Of a stretch of DNA of 64,000 bases, positions 41,030 through 57,083 are shown in pieces. Source of the stretch: a virus. Position 1 is the first letter of the stretch, and the number at the start of each line of letters is the position of its first letter. The stretch is taken from UHGV virus genome UHGV-1356548; one strand, written 5' to 3'. The position numbers were made by a program, and so were the translations under genes. Below the pieces are notes generated by a model. The model saw only the letters and a program-made list of their open reading frames with translations, was not told the DNA's origin and ran no database searches.

Positions 41030-42406
41030 ATGCCATATTTAGATAAAGTGGTAGATGTTACAGTTAACCTCGGAACCCAGCCTATTGACACTGTAGGTTT
41101 CGAAACTCCCCTGTTCATCGCTATCCACAACAACTTTACTGAGCGAGCTCGCGTATATGCAGAGCTGGATCAGATGGTGGAAGATGGTTTCGCACAAGGC
41201 TCTGCAGCGTATGAGTTTGCAGCAAAAGCTTTTGGTGGTGTATTCCCTCCACAATACGTTATGATCGGCAGACAGGCCAAAGAAAAGACCACTGTAGATT
41301 TTAAAGGTATTGCTGCCGCAGCTGATACCGATGTCGTAATGACTATTGCAAAAGGTAGCTACAATACCTCTTTGATAGTCCCTATCTCTGGTGGAACAGC
41401 TGCAACTCAGATTGCAGAGTCAATGAAGACTAAAATCGAAGCAGATGATAACTTGGACGATATCACTGTAGAGGCTGCTGATGGTGTTATCACCATCACT
41501 GGTGACTGTACTGTTGGTTACCATACTGGTAACTATACAATCAAAAATATCGCCAATGCTGAAAAACCTTCTACAGTAGTTGATAAGATCAATGCTGAGC
41601 GTGACAATTGGTACTTCCTGTGCCATGAAGACCACACCGACATTGAAGCATGTGCTAAGTGGGCTCAGGCTAACTACAAGCTGCATGTCTACTCTACTGC
41701 AGAAGATGTGACTGGTAAAGATAATAACATCGCCACCAAACTGAAATCTGCACAATATGACAGTGTCGGCATGTACGATCCTCGTGCAGATAAGGACTTC
41801 CCGGAGGGTGGTATCATAGGTGCTATGGCATCCAACGATCCGTCTTACGGCGACAGCTTGCACTTAAAACAGATGCCAGGTGTGATTGCACCGTCTCTGA
41901 CTTTAACTCAGCGTATGGCTATTTGGGAAAACCACGTTAACTTCTACAGAATGATTAACGGTGTTGGCGCTTTCTGGGAAGGTAAGTGTGCTTCAGGTCA
42001 GTATGCAGACGCTATTCGTTTTGCACACTGGATCAAGTTCAGATCTGAAGAATCTATGTTTGGGTACATGCATCGTCGCTCCAACATGGGTTTAAGCATG
42101 AAGATGTCTGATGATGATCTTCCGGTTATCAAGTCTGTTCTGATGAACAACCCGATCAATACTGGCATTAAGAATGGCGCGATCCTGACAGGTTTTGACG
42201 AAGACAACAATGTGTTCTACGACCCGATCATCACAGTTCCTAAACGTGCAGAAATCCCAACCAATCAGTTGGCTGCTCGTGTTCTGGAAGGTGTGAAAGT
42301 AGAACTGGTGTATAACAACGCCCTGCACTTCGTTCGTATCCGGATCAACGTCCTTCTGGACAAAGTTGGTTCTAAATCCACCAATGCTGTTGCAATGACT
42401 GAATAA
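41030..42406 (+). CDS. major tail structural protein (sheath-like or large tube-class, undetermined)
   Basis: 458-aa ORF with high-expression codon usage, two genes upstream of the chaperone pair and tape measure; family cannot be decided by eye. Confidence 0.45.
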   Translation: MPYLDKVVDVTVNLGTQPIDTVGFETPLFIAIHNNFTERARVYAELDQMVEDGFAQGSAAYEFAAKAFGGVFPPQYVMIGRQAKEKTTVDFKGIAAAADTDVVMTIAKGSYNTSLIVPISGGTAATQIAESMKTKIEADDNLDDITVEAADGVITITGDCTVGYHTGNYTIKNIANAEKPSTVVDKINAERDNWYFLCHEDHTDIEACAKWAQANYKLHVYSTAEDVTGKDNNIATKLKSAQYDSVGMYDPRADKDFPEGGIIGAMASNDPSYGDSLHLKQMPGVIAPSLTLTQRMAIWENHVNFYRMINGVGAFWEGKCASGQYADAIRFAHWIKFRSEESMFGYMHRRSNMGLSMKMSDDDLPVIKSVLMNNPINTGIKNGAILTGFDEDNNVFYDPIITVPKRAEIPTNQLAARVLEGVKVELVYNNALHFVRIRINVLLDKVGSKSTNAVAMTE

Positions 42407-42416
42407 GGAAGCCTAG

Positions 42417-42890
42417 ATGGAAACTCAAATTTTAACTCCTTATGCGTATGACCCTAAAAAGGTCAAACTGTATCTGATGCAGCAGCGTGTCACTGGCTTC
42501 GCTGCTGACACCAAGATTGTTGTTTCAAGAAACGAAGACAACATTTATCCTCACGTTGGTGTGGATGGTGAAATGTCTGCAGCTCTGTCCCGTAACCAAT
42601 CTGGTGTTATGACTGTGTCTTTGCAGAACACTTCTGTATGGAACGCTTACCTTTCTGACTGGCAGAAACAGGCATCTATTACTGGCCTGGTATTCTTCCC
42701 GGTTCTGCTGGAAGGTAGCCAGGGCCCTGGTATTTCCACAATCGGTTGGATCCAGAAACAGCCTGACCTGACTTACGGAACCGAAGTAGGTCAACTGGAC
42801 TGGGATATCGGTATTCTGGATGCATGGCTCAACCGTGATAACATTACTGGTGCTCTCACTGGCCTCGCAGGTCTTGCAGGTATTATCTAA
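42417..42890 (+). CDS. tail tube-like protein (candidate)
   Basis: 157-aa ORF with high-expression codon usage, followed by a terminator and then the chaperone/tape-measure genes. Confidence 0.4.
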   Translation: METQILTPYAYDPKKVKLYLMQQRVTGFAADTKIVVSRNEDNIYPHVGVDGEMSAALSRNQSGVMTVSLQNTSVWNAYLSDWQKQASITGLVFFPVLLEGSQGPGISTIGWIQKQPDLTYGTEVGQLDWDIGILDAWLNRDNITGALTGLAGLAGII

Positions 42891-42918
42891 GGGCACATTT
42901 TAGCATAAGCCTCACCTT

Positions 42919-42945
42919 AGGGTGGGGCTTTTTGCTTTTATGGTT
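42919..42945 (+). terminator. rho-independent terminator
   Basis: GCCTCACC-TTAG-GGTGGGGC hairpin (one G-U pair) followed by TTTTT. Confidence 0.6.
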
Positions 42946-42980
42946 TTGACACACGTTCTTGAATTGCTTGAAAGGTTAAA

Positions 42981-43009
42981 TTGACAATGCACCATAATCA
43001 TGGTAAAAT
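42981..43009 (+). promoter_or_regulatory. sigma70-like promoter with extended -10
   Basis: TTGACA, 17-bp spacer ending TGG, TAAAAT; upstream of the tail assembly chaperone gene. Confidence 0.55.
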
Positions 43010-43052
43010 ACACAAATATGGTGCACAACATGACTAATAAGGATGCTATAAA

Positions 43053-43526
43053 ATGGCTATAAACTTTAGACCTACAACAGAGATTGATTTAGCAGGGCAC
43101 AACTTTGTGATCACCCACTGGGGACCGATGAAAGCAATGAAAAACATGCCTAAAATCGGTAAGATTGTGGCTGTCCCGCTAGGTGCTATCGGTGGATCTA
43201 TTATCTCTGGTGGTCAGAATATGGCAGAGGTCCTTCCTACTGCTCTGGCTTACCTGTTCCAAGAACTTGATGATAATTCTATTGAAGAGTTATTTAAAAT
43301 CTTGTTCGAAGATATTACCGTAGATGGTGTGGATAAGCTTAACCCGGATGTTGTGTTTGCAGGGCATCTGCTGGAGATGATTAAGCTGGCAGGTAAGGTT
43401 CTGGAGGTTAACTACGGCTGTTTTTTCACACAAGACGGTTTAGGAAGCCTTCTGGAGATGTTACAGCAGATGGGTATGATTCAGCAGGTGAACAACCTGG
43501 ATCAGACTCCGGAAGAGCAGGAATAA
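43053..43526 (+). CDS. tail assembly chaperone (G-like)
   Basis: 157-aa acidic ORF immediately upstream of the tape measure gene; contains an internal slippery heptamer. Confidence 0.55.
   Translation: MAINFRPTTEIDLAGHNFVITHWGPMKAMKNMPKIGKIVAVPLGAIGGSIISGGQNMAEVLPTALAYLFQELDDNSIEELFKILFEDITVDGVDKLNPDVVFAGHLLEMIKLAGKVLEVNYGCFFTQDGLGSLLEMLQQMGMIQQVNNLDQTPEEQE
43421..43427 (+). promoter_or_regulatory. programmed -1 ribosomal frameshift slippery site
   Basis: U UUU UUC heptamer in the zero frame (codons TTT 43422-43424, TTC 43425-43427); the -1 frame is open from here to 43786. Confidence 0.5.
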
Positions 43527-43786
43527 GTAAGGTTGTTGTGAGGGCCAGTGAGTGGGCAGCCAAGAACAGTTCACTCAACTGGTTCGACTTTCTTTGGTGC
43601 AGGGTGCTCAAGAATTTCAAAGGGGAAAATTTTGAATCGCTAAATCTTGCAGATATGGCGTATTTCCTGAAGCTCTGTGAGTATCTTGATATCGAAGAAT
43701 TCCTAGATACCGTCCAAAACAGGGAAATGGAGCGGGAGCAGAAGGCTGCCGCAGCTGCTGCGAAAGCTAAGCGCAGGAGAGGATAA
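43427..43786 (+). CDS. tail assembly chaperone frameshift extension (GT-like)
   Basis: -1 frame open with no stop from 43427 to 43786; would yield a fusion of about 244 aa (43053-43426 plus 43427-43786), as in lambda G/GT. Confidence 0.45.
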   Translation, partial: HTRRFRKPSGDVTADGYDSAGEQPGSDSGRAGISKVVVRASEWAAKNSSLNWFDFLWCRVLKNFKGENFESLNLADMAYFLKLCEYLDIEEFLDTVQNREMEREQKAAAAAAKAKRRRG

Positions 43787-43840
43787 TCTAAGGGCCGGAT
43801 TCCTTTTCTGGGATCTGGCCCTTTTTATTATGAGGAAACC

Positions 43841-46177
43841 ATGGCTACAAACAAAATAGTTGCCACAACAGTCAACAAGATTGGCTTTGAGATAGAGAAC
43901 TCCTCCTACAAAAAAGCTGTAGAGAAAATTCGCAGTATTGGGAGGGAGTTCAGGAAACTGGGCGAAGATTTTAACTCAGCCAACCCCATGAGCAGATGGC
44001 AGGCGGTAGCTGTTAAAACCCAGCAGACAATGCAGCGGGTTGCCAGACAGCAATCTCAGGCAAATGCTAAACTGCACAGAGAGAGCGTAGCACAGGCCAA
44101 GAAAGAGGCTGCAGTAAGGGCTGCAATAGAACGTAGGGAGAATGCGAGACGTAAACAAGCTGTAGGTAATCTTACCGCTAAAAATCCAGAAATGGCTAGG
44201 ATGCGTAAGTTCTACCAGCAGCAAGCTAAAGAGGCCAAAAAGGCTGCCAAATCTGCACCAGTGTCTTACGGTGGTTATAAGGCACCTAAGGCAAGAGTTT
44301 TGGCTAATGCCAAATCTTTCAAATATATCCCCGGTAACCCTAATATGGGTGGTGTGGCTTCCGACCCTAACCTTGTGAAAGCTCAGACAGCCGCTATGAA
44401 TCGTTATCATAGACAGCTAAGAAGAGACAGTAAAGCTGGTATGGATAATAAGCTTATGTCGGATCGTGAGGCAAGGAGAACCCACCTCTACAACTCCGCG
44501 ATAAGACTTTCTGCCAAGTATGGGGCCGGATTCCGTGGAAGCTTACCAGGATACTCAGAGTTAGAGTCCAGGTTTGCTCGCGGGGAGATGAAGAAGTCAA
44601 CCTTTAACGCCCACCTGTCAGCGCTGCAGTCTGGGTTTAAAAGCGCCACCAGCCAAACGCTTACACTAGGCGATGCCATGAGAGACTTACGTAGATCTGT
44701 TATTAATGCAACAGCTGCGTATACGGCTTTTTCTGGATTTGCTGCGGTTAACAGATCCGGTCACATGATGGAGGGGGCAAGTGCTGCTCTTACTGCTGTT
44801 ACTGGAGATCCAAACAAAGCCAACAGTGAGGTTGCGTTTGTCCAGCAAGAGGCTATGCGTCTTGGTTTTGATCTCAAATCTGGTCTTCAAGGTTACGCCC
44901 AGATGTCGGTAAACGCCAAAAACCAGATGACAAATCAGGAAGTGCATGAGCTGTTTTCTGCATACTCACAGTATGCTGCTGCTTATGGTGCCGATGAGGT
45001 AAAATACCAGCGCGGTATTATGGCTATCCAACAGATGCTTGGCAAGGGACAAGTAATGTCCGAAGAACTGAAGCAACAACTTGCTGAAGCATTGCCCGGT
45101 GCATACGAACCTTTTATCAAGGCCACCAAAGAGGCTTTTGGTCTTTCTGAACTCTCCATGGATCAGTTCATGGACATGATGAAGAAAGGTGAGGTTAAAA
45201 CAGCCAAGATCATGAAGTATGTGGCTAAGTACATGAACGAGGCATCTGCAGCTGGTTATGAAAGAATGCAGAAGTCTAACGTGCTGGCAGAAAACAGACT
45301 GAAAACCTTCATCGAACTGACTCGTCAGAAACTGTTCACCCGTTGGTCCGACGAACTAACAGAGTTCTATTATACACTAATCCGCACTGGTGAGACTCTG
45401 CAATTTGTGTGGGATGCCTCTGGTGATTTTGTTAGCGGGTTTGTGAGAGGCCTTAACTGGGTAGTTGGTGAACTAAACAACACCATAGTCAAGATCCGCA
45501 TGTTTTTCCTTGAATGGGGGATTAAATGGGGATTCATAACAGCTAAGACGAAGGAATATTCTGAAGAGCTTCATGACACCTTTAGCTATGCTAAATGGGC
45601 AGGGTTTGCTGCTGCCATCATGCTGGTAGTCAATGCCCTAACAAAAGGTTTTGTCATGGCATCCATGCTTGTAAAAACCTTTAAATTCCTTAACTCTCTA
45701 AGGGGTGCAGCCGGAGCAGCGGGTGCCGCTACTACAGAAGGATCTGGTGGTGGAGCTCCGGCAGGAAAAGGTGGGGGTGGCCTCAAGACACCTGGTGGCA
45801 AAGTTGGTCTGCTCGGTAAGCTGGGCATTATCGGTACAATACTAAGCGCCGGGGAATTATTTAATGACCGTTACAACCCACTAAGTGAAAGAAATCAGCA
45901 GCTGGACACTATCAGCGATATGATTCGCAAAGATATCATATCGGGAGGTAACGGGTTTGTTAATCCTTTGGACACCTTACCGGGCGGGACTCTTCCGTTG
46001 CCGGGTGGCCCTGGTTTTGCTTCTCAATTAAGAACTATGGAAATGCTACCTTTAGAGATCAGTGATGGGAAAATCACGATTTCAATAGATGAGGGTGAGT
46101 TTAACAAAATATTTGATGCAAAACTTGAGTGGGAGAACAATAAAGATATCAACTTCATGTCTACCGACCTTTGGTAA
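43841..46177 (+). CDS. tail tape measure protein
   Basis: 778-aa ORF, extended helical/Ala-Lys-rich N-terminal half, Gly-rich hydrophobic segment (GGGAPAGKGGGGLKTPGGKVGLLGKLGIIGTILSAG); directly follows the chaperone pair. Confidence 0.75.
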   Translation: MATNKIVATTVNKIGFEIENSSYKKAVEKIRSIGREFRKLGEDFNSANPMSRWQAVAVKTQQTMQRVARQQSQANAKLHRESVAQAKKEAAVRAAIERRENARRKQAVGNLTAKNPEMARMRKFYQQQAKEAKKAAKSAPVSYGGYKAPKARVLANAKSFKYIPGNPNMGGVASDPNLVKAQTAAMNRYHRQLRRDSKAGMDNKLMSDREARRTHLYNSAIRLSAKYGAGFRGSLPGYSELESRFARGEMKKSTFNAHLSALQSGFKSATSQTLTLGDAMRDLRRSVINATAAYTAFSGFAAVNRSGHMMEGASAALTAVTGDPNKANSEVAFVQQEAMRLGFDLKSGLQGYAQMSVNAKNQMTNQEVHELFSAYSQYAAAYGADEVKYQRGIMAIQQMLGKGQVMSEELKQQLAEALPGAYEPFIKATKEAFGLSELSMDQFMDMMKKGEVKTAKIMKYVAKYMNEASAAGYERMQKSNVLAENRLKTFIELTRQKLFTRWSDELTEFYYTLIRTGETLQFVWDASGDFVSGFVRGLNWVVGELNNTIVKIRMFFLEWGIKWGFITAKTKEYSEELHDTFSYAKWAGFAAAIMLVVNALTKGFVMASMLVKTFKFLNSLRGAAGAAGAATTEGSGGGAPAGKGGGGLKTPGGKVGLLGKLGIIGTILSAGELFNDRYNPLSERNQQLDTISDMIRKDIISGGNGFVNPLDTLPGGTLPLPGGPGFASQLRTMEMLPLEISDGKITISIDEGEFNKIFDAKLEWENNKDINFMSTDLW

Positions 46178-48563: not shown

Positions 48564-49240
48564 TGGCAATAAATAGGAAAGATGCTGCTGTAAGATCCTT
48601 TATAGAAAAAATAATGAGGGACTACCACACCAGTATCAGGGCCAGAGTTGTCAGTGTAGACTACAGTATCCCTTCTGCAGCCGTGCAGCCAATAGCTGAA
48701 ACCACGTTTGATGATGGAGATGTGGAGAGATACCCTCTTATCTATGACGTTCCAATTCAAGTGATGTCTGCAAACAGTGGAAAGGCAAGGTTAACACTTC
48801 CTATTAAAGCTGGTGATGTTGTAGGATTGCAGTTTTCAGAGAGAAATGAAAACAATAACGACGATCAACAAACTCACGGCCTGTTTCCTGGGTGGGCAAT
48901 AACCTCTGTTCATTCAGACTCAAACGCTTTACAGATCGATCCTGATAACGTAGAGTTATGGAATGATAAGGTCTATTTTAAACTGACACCTTCTGGAGAT
49001 TTTGAGCTTCAAACACCGGGTGGGACATTACGGTGCGACAGCAGCGGGGAGTTTTCTTTCACTAACGGTGCTGCCAATTTGCGAGCTGCTGTGGATGGAA
49101 ATATCAGAATGAATGGTGCCACAATAGACCCATCTGGTAGAATTATAACTGCTGCTGGTGTGGATTTGGATTCATTCTATGCAGAATATAAAGGTCATAC
49201 CCACTCTTGCCCTGATGGCGAGACAAGTGGACCGCACTAA
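48563..49240 (+). CDS. hypothetical tail/baseplate protein (possible spike)
   Basis: 225-aa ORF, start overlaps previous stop. Confidence 0.3.
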   Translation: MAINRKDAAVRSFIEKIMRDYHTSIRARVVSVDYSIPSAAVQPIAETTFDDGDVERYPLIYDVPIQVMSANSGKARLTLPIKAGDVVGLQFSERNENNNDDQQTHGLFPGWAITSVHSDSNALQIDPDNVELWNDKVYFKLTPSGDFELQTPGGTLRCDSSGEFSFTNGAANLRAAVDGNIRMNGATIDPSGRIITAAGVDLDSFYAEYKGHTHSCPDGETSGPH

Positions 49241-49252
49241 TAGAGGGCTTTC

Positions 49253-49969
49253 ATGGCTACGCTTTATAGTGATATATTGATGGACCCACAGACAGGCGAT
49301 TTGGCGATAGACAAAGGTCTTGAGTTGATAGATTCAAACCAGGTAAGTCTGCGCCAGCGCTTGTGGATGAGGTTTAATACGTGGAAGGGGAGCTGGTACT
49401 TTGACGAGTTGTTTGGCTTCCCTTATATGGACTTTCTCAGTAAGAAGGTCATGAAGACTGTTCTTGATAACAAGATTATGGAAGTGGCAAGACAAGAGCC
49501 GGATGTGCTAAACATCGTAAACTTCCAGTCTACCATGGATCGAAGATCGAGAACATACCAAGCGTTCTTTGAGGTTGTTACCAAAGAGAACGAGATTGTA
49601 AGGCTGGCTTTCGTAGGTCTTGATCAGTTTACCTACCCACAGCCTGATTCTGGGACAACCTCTCTCTGTGATGATGAAGGTTGGATTAAGTGGGCCAATA
49701 AACTGTACTACCTGATCAACTTCAGATTGCCTAGAACCGGAGATGCCACATGGTGGAACCAGTATGCTGGTCCTGAGATGGAAAACCCTATCCCTGTAGG
49801 CTCTCTGTTGACTCAGGATAAAGATCTGCTGATGACCGAGGCAGAACAAACCATTAACCGCAATACCTGGACTCTTGCTCCAGATGAGCGCGAATACTCT
49901 GGTGTTATTGCTACCTCCAATGATGAGGCTATTGCCAACCAGTCTGGTCGTGCTATTGATGTTAACTAA
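49253..49969 (+). CDS. hypothetical tail/baseplate protein
   Basis: 238-aa ORF. Confidence 0.3.
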   Translation: MATLYSDILMDPQTGDLAIDKGLELIDSNQVSLRQRLWMRFNTWKGSWYFDELFGFPYMDFLSKKVMKTVLDNKIMEVARQEPDVLNIVNFQSTMDRRSRTYQAFFEVVTKENEIVRLAFVGLDQFTYPQPDSGTTSLCDDEGWIKWANKLYYLINFRLPRTGDATWWNQYAGPEMENPIPVGSLLTQDKDLLMTEAEQTINRNTWTLAPDEREYSGVIATSNDEAIANQSGRAIDVN

Positions 49970-53282: not shown

Positions 53283-56200
53283 ATGGCTGATATTAAAGTT
53301 GTCAGAATTGAATCTCTTCCTGCCACTACCGCAGTGACAGAGGATGATTACCTGGTTGTTCAACAACCAGACCTGACCCGTCGTGTAAAAATTGGCGATG
53401 TTGTCCATGTTGATGGGACTGTTTCTCATGTAATCTCCTTTAAGGAAGGTGGTAAGTTAAACGGCCCAATGGATTTTGCCTACTTCGAAGAGGAAGACCT
53501 CTACCTACGTTGGAAAGGCGAATTTCCGCACACTGTTCCTGCACTGTCTTCACCGTACTCCGATGGTGGGATCACTGATGCTGCATGGATGGTATATACT
53601 GACCCGTCCTTAAGGGAGGAGCTGGAATCTACCATTGGCGCATCTATGATCATGACAGCCGAAGGGCAGTCTGTCCAGGATGTAATGGATGTTACTGTTC
53701 AGACAGCTAACGATGCCAAAGCACTTGCACAGCGTGTAGATTTTGGTACAGTGCACACTGTAGGCGATGTTATTCACCTTGATAACTTTGTTGGCCCTGC
53801 AGTTATTGAAGAGGGAAGAACTACCAACTACCCTTCTGTAGCAGCTGGTGAAAAATTTCTGAACGGTGTGGTATCTCGTCGTGATACTACAACTGTTGAT
53901 GGTATTTTCCGTGGCGCTACCACCGGAGCCATGTACACCATTGCAGTAACCAACGGTGTAGCAACAACGAAAAGAATAGCACTTCGTGATGAATTTAAAC
54001 GCCTAGAGGCAAACAACCCAACAAGAACAGTTATCCGTGCTGGAGATGATTTAAATACGGCAGGGTACTTGCAGCTTGATGCAACAGGCCGTTGGGGTAT
54101 GTGGAACCAACAAACAGCTTCGTGGCAACCTCTTGCTATAGAGCAAGGCGGCACAGGGGCTAGAGATGCCGCTGGAGTCCGTATCAATATCGGTGCTTTC
54201 TATAAGCAACGTGCAGCCCTTGAGCCAAATTTCAATATCAATAACTTGACTGGTAATCAGGATGGTGTATACTACCAGCCGATGACTGCTTATGCAACTG
54301 AGGCAAATGGTTACCCTGCAGGTTCTGGTGCTGGTCACTTGATTGTCTGGCAGAACAATGCTAACGGCGGTACAGGTTGTCGTCAGGAATACTATCCATT
54401 CTCTAACGTAGATGTTTGGTATTTGAGAACCTATCAGGCCAACACAAATCAGTGGACTGCATGGCAGCCGATGGTCAGACCTCGTAACGATGATACCTTT
54501 AGATCGCACATCGGTCTCGGGTCTAGAAATACCCCTACCTTCGGGCACCTTTACCTATCTCAAAGCACTTCTGAGGTTAAGTCTCCATCAGGTATTCTCC
54601 ATGGGGATAAATACGGCGCTGACGGTGTCCTTGAGCATGGGTATAGGATCTACTCTGAGGTAAGAAACGACAATAAGGCTTGGTTGACAATCCACCTGCA
54701 CAAAGGCGCAAAAGGATCTGAAACTCATAGCTATTTAGGCTTCCGTGAGGATGGGGTCTTAGATTGTCCTAAATATATGCAGGTTGGTGATCTGAACGGT
54801 CAGCTGGCAAACTGGGGACTTGGAGAGTGGATCCGTAGTTCAGGGGCAGAAAGAGGCTTCTGGGGGTCCAAGAAAGCCGCCAAGATGGTTGTCTGGGATG
54901 GCGGTATGGACGAGCAAGGTGAAGGAACGCTTGAATGGGGTGTTTATAACAACCGGAAGGCCAAGTGGGAACCTCTACCTCAAGCCGCAGGTGGCACTGG
55001 GGCTACAACTTTAGCAGATGCTCAGAATCTGTTCAAAGTTCCTATAGCAGCAGGTGTAAAAGACTTCTTAACACTGCCAAGAACCGCAGGGATGGAAGAT
55101 GGGAAATACTACCCAATCATCGTTAGAACAGATCCGTATTACGCCCCTTCGACAGGTACAGATATTACTATAGTCACCAGGTCTTCATCTGGAAATGACC
55201 CTATGAACTGTGCGACCTTACAGTGTCACTATAGAACTGGTGGTTGGACAGACAGAGGAGACTCTTTCTACGGGGTAGTAAATTTCTACCAGAATGAAAA
55301 AGCACTTCTTGGGATGGTTGCTCCAACAAGGGGTAAACAAGAATATGTTGCTTTCTATGCAGAGGCGCGTGCTTTCCCTGTCAGCATATACGCAAGTAGA
55401 AATGTTGTCGAGGTGTTTACCAGGGAGCAAGATTACCAGGTTGGCTCTGTAACAGACAATCAGGACGGTGTTAAGTTCGTTGCACCTCTCCAGTCAGCAG
55501 ATTTGAATCTTGCTGTTCTTGGAGATAATAATACCAACACCAGACCTATTGTTGACTTCAAAGGGACTTCAGGGTTCTACACTGGTGGCGGCACACAGTG
55601 GCACTATATAGGCACTGCTGAACGCTATGCTGTGATGAGCAAAATGAATATGCCAAAAGTCGAGCTATGGGCAGACGGTCTTAACTATTTGTGCTACGGC
55701 AGTCCTAGAAAGGCGTTATTCTCTAATGCAGGCTTCCAGTGTGCATCAGATGGGACAGAGGATCTGACTAACGGTACGTTTACCTCTAAATGCGGTAATG
55801 GTGCTGGTCTCAAAGGACAGGCAGAGTTCAGATCTACTCCAGAGGCTGGTCAAGTTATTGTTCGTGATGTTGTAGGTTCTGCTCACAAATTCTACAACTT
55901 CAACAAAGATGGCACTTTCTCAGCTCCTGGTGGTTTTGTATGCCACACAGGTGCAGACTGGAACAACCAGTTCGGAAATAACAACCCTTCTAAAATAATG
56001 GCTGGTAACGTCAACGGACCTGAAGGTTCCATGGTTGTAGCAGGGTTGTCGGTTGGTTTTTCTGGAAACTACGCTTTCCAGATGGCAGGTCGTTTAGACC
56101 AGCTGTACACTCGTTCCATAGAGCAGGGAAACCACAGAGCGTGGAACAAAGTTATTCAGCACCGTGGTCAAGGGTTGGGAACTAATGACCTTAACGACTA

Positions 56201-57083
56201 CAAAGGGGATAGAGAGGGTTTTTATCACCAAGAGGCCAATGCTCAGGCCACTCCGGAGAGAAACTACCCTTGTGCTCAGGCAGGTACACTTATTGTGTAC
56301 AGGAATTACGCCAACGTGCCTGAGAGCTGTGTGCAGGAATATGTATCATATCTTGGGGAAAAATTCCTGCGTTATGGAACAACAATAGGTAGTGTTTTCA
56401 CATGGGGACCTTGGCAGCAGCTTGGTGGCAAAGGGATCACTTTGAAAACTCAAGGTTCGAATCTTGACCCAGAGTTTATAATCCACACTGGCGGCGGAGC
56501 TACTGTTGGCAACAGTTCCAACATACCTGCTAATACAGGTAGGTTATATTATTGGGGCAATGGTGCAGACCGGAAGAATGTGCTTGAGTTCCAGATAAGT
56601 GATAACTCAACACTCTCCAACTGGGTATTCCATTGCGGGGCCAAGACAGATGAGGCCAAATCAAGATATTTTGCTGTCAATGGTGCAGTAGAATGCACCA
56701 CTGTTAGTCAAAGTTCTGACCGTGACCTGAAGGATAATATCGAGGTCATACCTAACGCTGTAGAAGCTATCCGGAAGATGAAAGGCTATACCTATACTTT
56801 AAAAGAGAATGGTATGCCTTACGCAGGGGTAATTGCTCAAGAAGTTATGGAAGCATTACCAGAAGCGGTTGGGTCTTTCGTGCAAAGGAAAGAGGTTCCA
56901 GGGCCTACTCAAGACGGCACCCCTCTGATGACTGAGGAAAGATTCTATAACGTTGACTATGCAGCTGTAACAGGCTTGCTTGTCCAGGTTTGCAGGGAAC
57001 AGGACGATAAAATAACCGCCCTTGAGGAGCAGGTTAAAAAATTGACAGAGGTTGTTACTGGGTTGCAAGAGAAACTGAAGTAA
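53283..57083 (+). CDS. long tail fiber with C-terminal S74-type intramolecular chaperone (autoproteolytic) domain
   Basis: 1266 aa; C-terminal SDRDLKDNIEV...GVIAQEV...coiled-coil signature of endosialidase/L-shaped-fiber chaperone domains; internal duplicated module (GHLIVWQNNANGGTGCRQEYYPF / GTLIVYRNYANVPESCVQEYVSY). Confidence 0.75.
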   Translation: MADIKVVRIESLPATTAVTEDDYLVVQQPDLTRRVKIGDVVHVDGTVSHVISFKEGGKLNGPMDFAYFEEEDLYLRWKGEFPHTVPALSSPYSDGGITDAAWMVYTDPSLREELESTIGASMIMTAEGQSVQDVMDVTVQTANDAKALAQRVDFGTVHTVGDVIHLDNFVGPAVIEEGRTTNYPSVAAGEKFLNGVVSRRDTTTVDGIFRGATTGAMYTIAVTNGVATTKRIALRDEFKRLEANNPTRTVIRAGDDLNTAGYLQLDATGRWGMWNQQTASWQPLAIEQGGTGARDAAGVRINIGAFYKQRAALEPNFNINNLTGNQDGVYYQPMTAYATEANGYPAGSGAGHLIVWQNNANGGTGCRQEYYPFSNVDVWYLRTYQANTNQWTAWQPMVRPRNDDTFRSHIGLGSRNTPTFGHLYLSQSTSEVKSPSGILHGDKYGADGVLEHGYRIYSEVRNDNKAWLTIHLHKGAKGSETHSYLGFREDGVLDCPKYMQVGDLNGQLANWGLGEWIRSSGAERGFWGSKKAAKMVVWDGGMDEQGEGTLEWGVYNNRKAKWEPLPQAAGGTGATTLADAQNLFKVPIAAGVKDFLTLPRTAGMEDGKYYPIIVRTDPYYAPSTGTDITIVTRSSSGNDPMNCATLQCHYRTGGWTDRGDSFYGVVNFYQNEKALLGMVAPTRGKQEYVAFYAEARAFPVSIYASRNVVEVFTREQDYQVGSVTDNQDGVKFVAPLQSADLNLAVLGDNNTNTRPIVDFKGTSGFYTGGGTQWHYIGTAERYAVMSKMNMPKVELWADGLNYLCYGSPRKALFSNAGFQCASDGTEDLTNGTFTSKCGNGAGLKGQAEFRSTPEAGQVIVRDVVGSAHKFYNFNKDGTFSAPGGFVCHTGADWNNQFGNNNPSKIMAGNVNGPEGSMVVAGLSVGFSGNYAFQMAGRLDQLYTRSIEQGNHRAWNKVIQHRGQGLGTNDLNDYKGDREGFYHQEANAQATPERNYPCAQAGTLIVYRNYANVPESCVQEYVSYLGEKFLRYGTTIGSVFTWGPWQQLGGKGITLKTQGSNLDPEFIIHTGGGATVGNSSNIPANTGRLYYWGNGADRKNVLEFQISDNSTLSNWVFHCGAKTDEAKSRYFAVNGAVECTTVSQSSDRDLKDNIEVIPNAVEAIRKMKGYTYTLKENGMPYAGVIAQEVMEALPEAVGSFVQRKEVPGPTQDGTPLMTEERFYNVDYAAVTGLLVQVCREQDDKITALEEQVKKLTEVVTGLQEKLK

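What the first reader, a model, noticed from the sequence alone, without database searches (positions are those of the whole stretch)
43421..43786. Programmed -1 frameshift in the tail assembly chaperone gene
A canonical slippery heptamer U UUU UUC lies in the zero frame 100 nt before the stop of the chaperone ORF, and the -1 frame is open from there for 120 codons up to just before the tape measure gene. This is the conserved G/GT arrangement of tailed phages.
Basis: partly seen in the sequence, partly recalled or inferred. Interest (0 to 1): 0.45.

Follow-up and report, generated by a model that had tools for sequence, protein, structure and literature searches.

The report
Tail chaperone G/GT frameshift, rV5-like phage
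The window comes from an rV5-like E. coli phage whose tail assembly chaperone gene carries a strongly conserved but unannotated -1 ribosomal frameshift site; this is the ordinary G/GT arrangement of tailed phages, so it corrects an annotation rather than revealing new biology.

Summary
T_TTT_TTC lies at 43421-43427 in the zero frame (Cys-Phe-Phe) of a 157-aa ORF (43053-43526). That ORF belongs to Pfam Phage_TAC_15 and sits between the tail tube and tape measure genes. The -1 frame is open from 43412 to the stop at 43784-43786, which predicts a 244-aa (27 kDa) fusion.

In-frame heptamers are common in the window (57), so the heptamer alone proves little. The comparative evidence is what decides it:
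- All 70 related loci examined carry an in-frame heptamer at the same place. These fall into 17 lineages at 70% identity, and some relatives are only about 27% identical to the window protein.
- The codon before Phe-Phe encodes Cys, Ser or Pro but always ends in T.
- The -1 frame has 0 stops in 498 overlap codons, against 199 in 2213 codons upstream.
- No start codon for the downstream ORF is conserved.
- Two lineages use G_GGA_AAG or C_CCT_TTT instead, which points to ribosomal slippage.

I found no conserved downstream structure. A conserved SD-like GGAGG/GAGG lies about 13 nt upstream.

The homologous site is already annotated as a frameshift in the Felix O1-like phage Moogle, and a 2025 paper describes it for sister families. 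No Vequintavirus record examined annotates it.

Verdict: real, a new member of a known kind, low interest.

The parts
41030..42406 (+). Tail sheath gene (context)
   Evidence: 458-aa ORF; phrog_205 tail sheath E 1e-117, Pfam DUF3383; annotated as tail sheath in rV5.
42417..42890 (+). Tail tube gene (context)
   Evidence: 157-aa ORF; Pfam PF11681 KPP10_Orf10, phrog_280; detected by MS as the rV5 tail tube gp52.
42981..43009 (+). Near-consensus sigma-70 promoter in front of the chaperone gene
   Evidence: TTGACA-17-TAAAAT with an extended TG, 11 of 12 matches; annotated as promoter P51 in rV5. Consensus match only; function not shown.
43053..43526 (+). G: zero-frame tail assembly chaperone ORF, 157 aa, 17.3 kDa
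43403..43407 (+). SD-like GGAGG, candidate upstream frameshift stimulator (13 nt before the heptamer)
   Evidence: Strongest anti-SD pairing anywhere in the G gene: -10 kcal/mol, matched by no background window. The Glu codon here is GAG in 14 of 15 lineages, against GAA 98: GAG 53 elsewhere in these genes. [quoted passage not shown] Function is inferred.
43421..43427 (+). Slippery heptamer T_TTT_TTC (U_UUU_UUC), in phase with the zero frame
   Evidence: Present in all 70 related loci examined: U6C in 67, U7 in 1, C_CCT_TTT in 1, G_GGA_AAG in 1. U_UU.U_UU.C falls in the class of efficient -1 motifs in E. coli (H_HH.U_UU.Y) and is used by IS elements (PMC4066793).
43427..43786 (+). T: the -1 frame extension, 119 codons plus TAA. 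It comprises an RFRKPSG motif, a Gly/Ser/Asp-rich linker, a conserved C-terminal domain and a basic tail
   Evidence: The C-terminal 82 aa match phrog_10409 (E 9e-51). There are no -1 frame stops in the overlap in any of 18 lineage representatives. No start codon is conserved.
43790..43823 (+). Terminator-like hairpin with a T tract, between the T stop and the tape measure start
   Evidence: 14-bp stem, 8 GC pairs; annotated as a rho-independent terminator in rV5. Its role relative to tape measure expression was not examined.
43841..46177 (+). Tape measure protein gene (context)
   Evidence: 778-aa ORF; Pfam TMP_3, phrog_5255.

Best explanation
The window is part of an rV5-like Vequintavirus genome. 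Gene 43053-43526 encodes the tail assembly chaperone G (157 aa). Most ribosomes terminate at TAA 43524-43526.

A minority behave differently when the Phe-Phe codons UUU UUC are in the P and A sites. They slip back one base on U_UUU_UUC (43421-43427) and continue in the -1 frame to TAA 43784-43786. This yields a 244-aa GT protein with the folded G domain (residues 1-125), a flexible linker and a conserved T domain.

The slip is probably helped by pairing of the 16S rRNA 3' end with GGAGG 13 nt upstream, and no downstream RNA structure appears to be involved.

By analogy with lambda gpG/gpGT, G and the G part of GT coat the tape measure protein, the T part recruits the tail tube protein, and neither ends up in the virion.

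Shown here: the sequence anatomy, family membership, and nucleotide-level conservation of the site and of the open -1 frame. Inferred: that the shift occurs, its efficiency, the SD contribution, and the roles of G and T.
For: Anatomy:
- The heptamer is in phase, and 119 open -1 codons follow it and end 54 nt before the tape measure gene.
- It is the only one of 57 in-frame heptamers in the window followed by a long -1 ORF.

Identity:
- PF21822 Phage_TAC_15 and phrog_3840; the gene lies between tube and tape measure genes.

Conservation:
- 15 GenBank relatives (28-55% identity) and 55 IMG/VR loci all carry an in-frame heptamer 61-136 nt before the G stop, with the -1 frame open to just before the tape measure gene. 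In Barbavirus an inserted opposite-strand gene separates the two.
- Predicted fusion lengths cluster at 231-252 aa in the 15 GenBank relatives for which I built the fusion.
- The codon before Phe-Phe is TGT, TCT, CCT or AGT, so the amino acid varies while the third base T is fixed. The first Phe codon is always TTT, although TTT:TTC is 305:332 elsewhere in these genes.
- The -1 frame has 199 stops in 2213 codons upstream of the heptamer and 0 in 498 overlap codons. The +1 frame has stops in the overlap in 17 of 18 lineages.
- The -1 motif RFR(K/R)PSG directly after the site is conserved, even in Barba16S, which uses G_GGA_AAG.
- No start codon or SD is conserved for the T ORF. In Klebsiella phage K54_rec2 the first start is codon 84 of 126, inside the conserved domain.

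Mechanism:
- Heteropolymeric heptamers in two lineages fit tandem tRNA slippage.
- U_UU.U_UU.C falls in the efficient E. coli motif class.
- The upstream GAGG is conserved at a synonymous site.

Precedent:
- Moogle's joined 'tape measure chaperone' uses the same heptamer in the aligned motif ANFGSFF. It has the same Pfam family, and hhalign gives 96% probability.
- rV5 genes 50 and 51 carry no MS evidence as virion proteins, while neighbours 52 and 53 do.
Against: - I found no experimental detection of a GT product for any member of this Pfam family.
- No significant or conserved downstream stimulatory structure was found (z = -1.2 and -0.9). Lambda G/GT, as I recall, needs none.
- In the window itself a GTG at 43538 is preceded by AAGG, with a weak SD score of -4.2 against about -6 for neighbouring genes. 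Some independent initiation therefore cannot be excluded.
- The SD-like element overlaps the conserved residues Leu-Glu-Val, so part of its conservation is due to protein coding.
- The IMG/VR loci were retrieved with a peptide pattern that covers the site. This biases the amino acids at the site, though not the codon choices.
- The lineages are phylogenetically related, so the P values overstate independence.
Confidence: 0.88

Rival explanations
1. The downstream ORF is an independent small gene: 82 aa starting at GTG 43538, as most GenBank records annotate it. On this reading the heptamer is irrelevant.
For: AAGG lies 6 nt before GTG 43538. Many records annotate a separate 'hypothetical protein' here. 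phrog_10409 is an 82-aa family.
Against: - The start is not conserved. Annotated starts differ between relatives, and in K54_rec2, PBES02 and F5M2A the first possible start falls well inside the conserved domain.
- The SD is weaker than those of neighbouring genes.
- The -1 frame stays open for 19-44 codons upstream of the G stop, back to the heptamer, in all 18 lineages. The frame is full of stops before the heptamer.
- Conserved -1 residues (RFRKPSG, ISKVV) lie upstream of the GTG.
Confidence: 0.04
2. The same G-T fusion is produced by transcriptional slippage. RNA polymerase would add one extra U in the T6 run, rather than the ribosome slipping.
For: The site is a homopolymeric T6 run (T7 in L064) in 68 of the 70 loci. 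Insertion of one U would give the same reading frame change.
Against: - Six residues is, as I recall, shorter than the runs that give efficient slippage by E. coli RNA polymerase (about 9 A or T).
- Conservation concerns the phased heptamer. The run is always positioned as N NT TTT TTC relative to the zero frame.
- Two lineages replace it with G_GGA_AAG or C_CCT_TTT, which are ribosomal slip sites and not long homopolymer runs.
- A conserved SD-like element at stimulatory distance makes sense only for a ribosomal event.
Confidence: 0.05
3. The arrangement is an artefact or chance. Either a homopolymer sequencing error split one real G-T ORF in two, or the open -1 frame is accidental.
For: Homopolymer runs are error-prone in some sequencing chemistries, and in-frame heptamers are common (57 in the window).
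Against: - The same T6 and frame structure occur in 122 independently sequenced Vequintavirus records. At least 104 of them are 99% or more identical over this stretch. The same holds in distant relatives.
- The zero-frame C-terminal tail and its stop are themselves conserved (QVNxLDQ).
- The probability of no -1 stops in the overlaps is about 1e-20 under independence.
Confidence: 0.01

Closest known systems
Phage lambda gpG/gpGT and the conserved tail-chaperone frameshift of dsDNA tailed phages (Levin 1993; Xu, Hendrix and Duda 2004, 2013, 2014, as summarised in PMC5009743)
   Same: - Two overlapping ORFs lie between the major tail/tube gene and the tape measure gene.
[quoted passage not shown]
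- No obvious downstream structure is present.
   Different: - The heptamer differs: U_UUU_UUC here, and G_GGA_AAG in lambda as I recall.
- There is no detectable sequence similarity to lambda G. The window protein belongs to Pfam Phage_TAC_15.
- This is a contractile-tail phage.
- A conserved upstream SD-like element is present here.
- Nothing has been tested experimentally here.
[quoted passage not shown]
   Same: - Same Pfam family: PF21822, E 5e-19.
- hhalign probability 96% to the window family.
- The same T_TTT_TTC heptamer sits in the aligned motif ANFGSFF versus VNYGCFF, and the -1 ORF ends at the tape measure gene.
   Different: - Shorter proteins: G 133 aa and GT 212 aa. The heptamer is 49 nt from the stop.
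- Similarity of the T domain to the window family is weak: hhalign E 7e-4 with 26% probability, and BLASTP finds nothing.
- Moogle's frameshift is annotated. The Vequintavirus one is not.
The TAC-N/TAC-NC -1 frameshift with an invariant GTTTTT motif, proposed for Vandenendeviridae (Pakpunavirus Adele) and Andersonviridae (PMC12846349, 2025)
   Same: - The same kind of comparative argument was made: the -1 frame is open in all alleles and a poly-T motif is conserved near the 3' end of TAC-N.
- The window has cTGTTTTTTc, which contains GTTTTT.
- That paper places those families as relatives of Vequintavirinae.
   Different: - That paper did not analyse the Vequintavirinae or Stephanstirmvirinae chaperone locus.
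- The phased heptamer, the varying preceding codon and the upstream GAGG are, as far as I can see, not described there.
- I did not compare the Adele sequence directly.
E. coli dnaX and IS911/IS3-type -1 frameshift signals with an upstream SD-like stimulator (Larsen 1994; Prere 2011; criteria in PMC4066793)
   Same: An SD-like GGAGG/GAGG lies within the 6-17 nt stimulatory window before the slippery heptamer.
   Different: dnaX and the IS signals also use a downstream hairpin or pseudoknot. None is detectable here. The SD effect has not been tested here.

Membership tests
G/GT-type tail assembly chaperone pair with programmed frameshift (Xu et al. 2004) | The gene pair is located between the major tail/tube gene and the tape measure gene | tested here: met
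   The order is sheath 41030-42406, tube 42417-42890, G 43053-43526, T to 43786, tape measure 43841-46177. The same order holds in the relatives.
G/GT-type tail assembly chaperone pair with programmed frameshift (Xu et al. 2004) | The second ORF overlaps the 3' end of the first in another frame and has no translation start of its own | tested here: met
   There is a 115-nt overlap in the -1 frame. No start or SD is conserved across 15 relatives. The window has only a weak GTG/AAGG.
G/GT-type tail assembly chaperone pair with programmed frameshift (Xu et al. 2004) | A slippery sequence lies in the overlap, in the correct phase | tested here: met
   T_TTT_TTC at 43421-43427, phased tgT TTT TTC. 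It is the only heptamer in the overlap.
G/GT-type tail assembly chaperone pair with programmed frameshift (Xu et al. 2004) | The arrangement is conserved in diverged relatives despite sequence divergence | tested here: met
   70 of 70 loci in 17 lineages at 70% identity. Third-base T and TTT are fixed. There are 0 stops in 498 overlap codons against 199 in 2213 upstream.
G/GT-type tail assembly chaperone pair with programmed frameshift (Xu et al. 2004) | Both the short and the fused product are made, at a fixed ratio, and both are needed for tail assembly | not testable with these tools
   This needs MS or western blot and genetics. I found no report for this family in the literature searches.
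G/GT-type tail assembly chaperone pair with programmed frameshift (Xu et al. 2004) | The products are absent from mature virions | tested here: inconclusive
   In rV5 Table S3, genes 50 and 51 carry no 'MS evidence' label, while 52 and 53 do. This is absence of evidence only. I searched the raw MS table (S5) by gene and accession names only, without a hit.
Pfam PF21822 Phage_TAC_15 | The score against the family HMM exceeds the gathering threshold | tested here: met
   83.6 bits against a cutoff of 22, E 2.3e-23, covering profile positions 2-125 of 127. The precomputed PF21822 domain is present on all 73 homologues.
Tail assembly chaperone fold (HK97 2ob9 / YqbN 3klu type) | The predicted structure resembles solved TAC structures | tested here: inconclusive
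   [not shown]
SD-stimulated -1 frameshift signals (dnaX / IS911 type) | [quoted passage not shown] | tested here: met
   GGAGG at 43403-43407 is 14 nt before base 43422. It is conserved in 14 of 18 lineages, with the Glu codon fixed as GAG. The criterion comes from PMC4066793. The stimulatory function itself cannot be tested here.
SD-stimulated -1 frameshift signals (dnaX / IS911 type) | A downstream hairpin or pseudoknot 5-9 nt after the heptamer | tested here: not met
   Folding energies are not different from shuffles (z -1.2 and -0.9). Predicted hairpins differ in position and shape among 10 relatives.

The most novel reading that the evidence does not exclude
The frameshift signal may be a compact cassette that needs no RNA structure: GAGG, then 12-13 nt, then U_UUU_UUC. 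It would be embedded in the conserved peptide L-E-V-N-Y-G-x-F-F and inherited across a very large group of virulent myophages (Vequintavirinae, Stephanstirmvirinae, Plateaulakevirus, Felix O1-like phages and many uncultivated relatives). The upstream rRNA-mRNA pairing would set the G:GT ratio. That would make this one of the most widely conserved SD-stimulated frameshift signals outside dnaX and IS elements.
Probability: 0.45. Interest if true: 0.3.

Novelty: new member of a known kind. Interest (0 to 1): 0.2.

Why it matters
- **Annotation.** None of the Vequintavirus or related records I opened, and none of the 60 of 122 records sampled by feature name, annotates the fused product. Some omit the downstream ORF altogether. 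RefSeq rV5 lists it as a separate 'hypothetical protein' that starts at a CTG on the heptamer. rV5-like phages are widely used in phage-therapy and biocontrol cocktails, so a correct structural-gene annotation is useful.
- **Biology.** The result extends a known recoding site from Felix O1-like and Pakpunavirus-like phages to their Vequintavirinae and Stephanstirmvirinae relatives. It also points to a testable upstream SD-like stimulator. It does not change what is understood about tail assembly.

Tried and rejected
- **Downstream stimulatory structure.** I folded 43428-43530 and 43395-43480. The z-scores were -1.2 and -0.9, and the hairpin begins about 20 nt after the heptamer. Folds of 10 relatives were not consistent with each other. 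Rejected.
- **Annotated or natural in-frame G-T fusions.** A search of the 5.8-billion-protein collection with the 244-aa fusion returned 73 hits. All were 149-159 aa and G-only.
- **PDB sequence search with the G profile.** Nothing below E 0.1.
- **T-domain homology to Moogle.** BLASTP was negative, and the profile comparison was weak (E 7e-4, 26% probability). Left as inconclusive.
- **Literature.** I searched for rV5, Vequintavirus or Vequintavirinae together with frameshift. There is no report for this subfamily, and the rV5 genome paper mentions neither frameshift nor chaperone.
- **Other shift sites in the overlap.** Only the weak tetramers U_UUA (43439) and G_GGU (43472) are present.
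- **+1 frame.** It is closed, with 12 open codons in the window.
- **Not run.** I did not predict a structure for the T domain or search for its homologues, because the verdict would not change.

Full report
**What the window is.** The 2-kb stretch around the finding is 100% identical to Escherichia phage I29 and 99% identical to phage rV5 (Vequintavirus, Vequintavirinae). 128 phage records match it. The gene order is:
- tail sheath, 41030-42406;
- tail tube, 42417-42890;
- a 157-aa ORF, 43053-43526;
- a small downstream ORF ending at 43786;
- the 778-aa tape measure gene, starting at 43841.

**Check of the observation.** The sequence reads cggctgTTTTTTCacacaag, with TTTTTTC at 43421-43427. 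In the frame of the 157-aa ORF the codons are TGT TTT TTC (Cys-Phe-Phe), so the heptamer is phased as T_TTT_TTC. The -1 frame has a stop at 43409-43411 and is then open from 43412 to the TAA at 43784-43786. A slip on the heptamer gives 125 + 119 = 244 aa (27.1 kDa), against 157 aa (17.3 kDa) for normal termination. The heptamer starts 103 nt before the zero-frame stop codon. The -1 ORF ends 54 nt before the tape measure ATG.

**Is it more than chance?** A heptamer by itself means little. Among 68 putative genes of the window there are 57 in-frame X_XXY_YYZ heptamers. This one is followed by 119 open -1 codons, and the next best has 43.

The comparative evidence is decisive. I examined 15 GenBank relatives whose chaperone is 28-55% identical to the window's. 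They cover Seunavirus, Avunavirus, Certrevirus, Stephanstirmvirinae, Plateaulakevirus, Barbavirus and phage KLEP7. I also examined 55 IMG/VR loci. The 70 loci fall into 17 clusters at 70% protein identity.
- Every locus has an in-frame heptamer 61-136 nt before the G stop. It is U6C in 67 loci, U7 in one, C_CCT_TTT in KLEP7 and G_GGA_AAG in Rheinheimera phage Barba16S.
- The codon before Phe-Phe is TGT, TCT, CCT or AGT. The amino acid varies (Cys, Ser, Pro), but the third base is always T.
- The first Phe codon is always TTT, although TTT:TTC is 305:332 elsewhere in these genes.
- In 18 lineage representatives the -1 frame has 199 stops in 2213 codons upstream of the heptamer and none in the 498 codons between the heptamer and the G stop. 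The +1 frame has stops there in 17 of the 18. The nominal probability is about 1e-20, which is overstated because the lineages are related.
- One caveat applies. The IMG/VR loci were retrieved with a peptide pattern that spans the site. This biases the amino acids but not the codon choices.

**What the parts are.**
- *The G ORF.* The 157-aa protein matches Pfam PF21822 (Phage_TAC_15; 83.6 bits, cutoff 22) and phrog_3840, 'tail assembly chaperone'.
- *Predicted structure of G.* An AlphaFold2 model built from 24 homologues is moderately confident (mean pLDDT 67). Residues 1-125 are folded. The zero-frame tail, residues 125-157, scores below 50, so the fold ends at the shift site.
- *The -1 extension.* It begins with a conserved RFR(K/R)PSG motif, which is also present after the different heptamer of Barba16S. 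A variable Gly/Ser/Asp/Pro-rich linker follows. Next comes a conserved domain (...KNSSLxWFDYLWCR...L(E/N)xxDMxYLLKLNEYLDI...) that corresponds to phrog_10409. A basic C-terminus ends the protein.
- *Fusion length.* Predicted fusions cluster at 231-252 aa in the 15 GenBank relatives for which I built the fusion.

**Rival: an independent downstream gene.** Most records annotate the downstream ORF as a separate hypothetical protein. In the window a GTG at 43538 follows AAGG. That SD is weaker than those of neighbouring genes (-4.2 against about -6 kcal/mol). No start is conserved across relatives. In Klebsiella phage K54_rec2 the first possible start is codon 84 of 126, inside the conserved domain. 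Conserved -1 residues lie upstream of the GTG. I rate this rival at about 4%.

**Rival: transcriptional slippage on T6.** This would give the same product. However, the conservation concerns a phased heptamer, two lineages use heteropolymeric heptamers, and a conserved SD-like element at stimulatory distance fits a ribosomal event. I rate it at about 5%. It could contribute alongside ribosomal slippage.

**Rival: sequencing error or chance.** The same structure occurs in 122 independently sequenced Vequintavirus genomes and in distant relatives. The zero-frame tail (QVNxLDQ) and its stop are also conserved. This rival is excluded.

**Stimulatory elements.** I found none. Folding energies of 43428-43530 and 43395-43480 do not differ from shuffles (z -1.2 and -0.9). 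Predicted hairpins in 10 relatives agree neither in position nor in shape.

Upstream, GGAGG at 43403-43407 lies 13 nt before the heptamer. It is the strongest anti-SD complement in the whole G gene. GGAGG or GAGG at the same distance is present in 14 of 18 lineages. The Glu codon that supplies it is GAG in 14 of 15 lineages, although GAA outnumbers GAG 98:53 elsewhere in these genes (binomial P about 4e-6). Neighbouring synonymous sites vary freely.

[quoted passage not shown] The same paper places U_UU.U_UU.C in the efficient E. coli class of heptamers (H_HH.U_UU.Y) and among those used by IS elements. The SD effect here is an inference.

**Comparison with what is known.** The arrangement is the G/GT frameshift of tailed phages. 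In lambda the G:GT ratio is about 30:1, the G part binds the tape measure, the T domain recruits the major tail protein, and both are absent from virions (PMC5009743).

[quoted passage not shown] It is annotated as a joined CDS at 48626..49263. I verified three points:
- it uses T_TTT_TTC in the motif ANFGSFF, which aligns with the window's VNYGCFF;
- its -1 ORF ends exactly at the annotated coordinate;
- it matches PF21822 (E 5e-19) and the window family (hhalign probability 96%).

A 2025 paper proposes the same frameshift, with an invariant GTTTTT motif, for Vandenendeviridae and Andersonviridae. It notes that these families are related to Vequintavirinae but does not analyse the Vequintavirinae locus (PMC12846349).

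None of the Vequintavirus and related records I opened carries a joined CDS. Among 60 of 122 records sampled, none has a feature name suggesting one, and two records omit the downstream ORF. RefSeq rV5 annotates ORF 50 as starting at the CTG that overlaps the heptamer (LFFHTRR...). This suggests the annotators saw the open frame but did not join it. The rV5 paper mentions neither frameshift nor chaperone. Its gene table gives genes 50 and 51 no function and no MS evidence, unlike the virion proteins 52 and 53.

**Verdict.** Both the observation and the interpretation are correct. What remains unproven is experimental: that the 244-aa protein is made, at what ratio, and whether the upstream SD matters. 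This is a new, unannotated member of a well-known kind, homologous to a site already annotated in Felix O1-like phages. Interest is low (0.2). The modestly new elements are the breadth of conservation across Vequintavirinae, Stephanstirmvirinae and uncultivated relatives, and the conserved upstream SD-like element in place of a downstream structure.

Noticed in passing
window 42907-42930, 42981-43009 and 43790-43823: The G/T gene pair is bracketed by regulatory-looking sites. Upstream lie a terminator-like hairpin after the tube gene and a near-consensus sigma-70 promoter (TTGACA-17-TAAAAT with TG). Downstream, a strong terminator-like hairpin sits only 17 nt before the tape measure ATG. How the tape measure gene is transcribed past that hairpin is unclear.
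   Followed up: partly
GenBank MG0656xx records (e.g. MG065661, MG065646), matching window 42400-44400: About 18 records named 'Campylobacter phage' with host Campylobacter jejuni are 99-100% identical to this E. coli rV5-like phage over the region. Their host labels look doubtful.
   Followed up: no
L001 2519-2887 (rV5 NC_011041, ORF 50) = window 43418-43786: RefSeq rV5 annotates the -1 ORF as a separate 123-codon (stop included) CDS that starts at a CTG overlapping the slippery heptamer. This is an unusual start choice. It looks like an unjoined frameshift annotation.
   Followed up: yes
window 43428-43523 (G residues 126-157): The zero-frame tail after the shift site is predicted to be disordered (pLDDT <50). 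It nevertheless keeps a conserved QVNxLDQ motif and an acidic end across Vequintavirinae, which suggests the G-specific tail has a function of its own.
   Followed up: partly
L012 2120-2758 (Rheinheimera phage Barba16S): In Barbavirus an opposite-strand gene ('putative DNA binding protein') is inserted between the end of the T ORF and the tape measure gene. This breaks the otherwise tight G-T-TMP linkage. This lineage also uses G_GGA_AAG instead of U6C.
   Followed up: no
L009 1333-1953 (Pseudaeromonas phage KLEP7): The chaperone is annotated with an N-terminal extension of about 50 aa (206 aa) that no relative has. The start is probably mis-called. The downstream -1 ORF is not annotated at all.
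   Followed up: no
window 56798 (+), inside ORF 53283-57083: This is the second-longest -1 ORF behind an in-frame heptamer in the window: T_TTA_AAA followed by 43 open codons, inside a 1266-aa ORF. It is probably chance, and I did not examine it.
   Followed up: no
[not shown]
   Followed up: no
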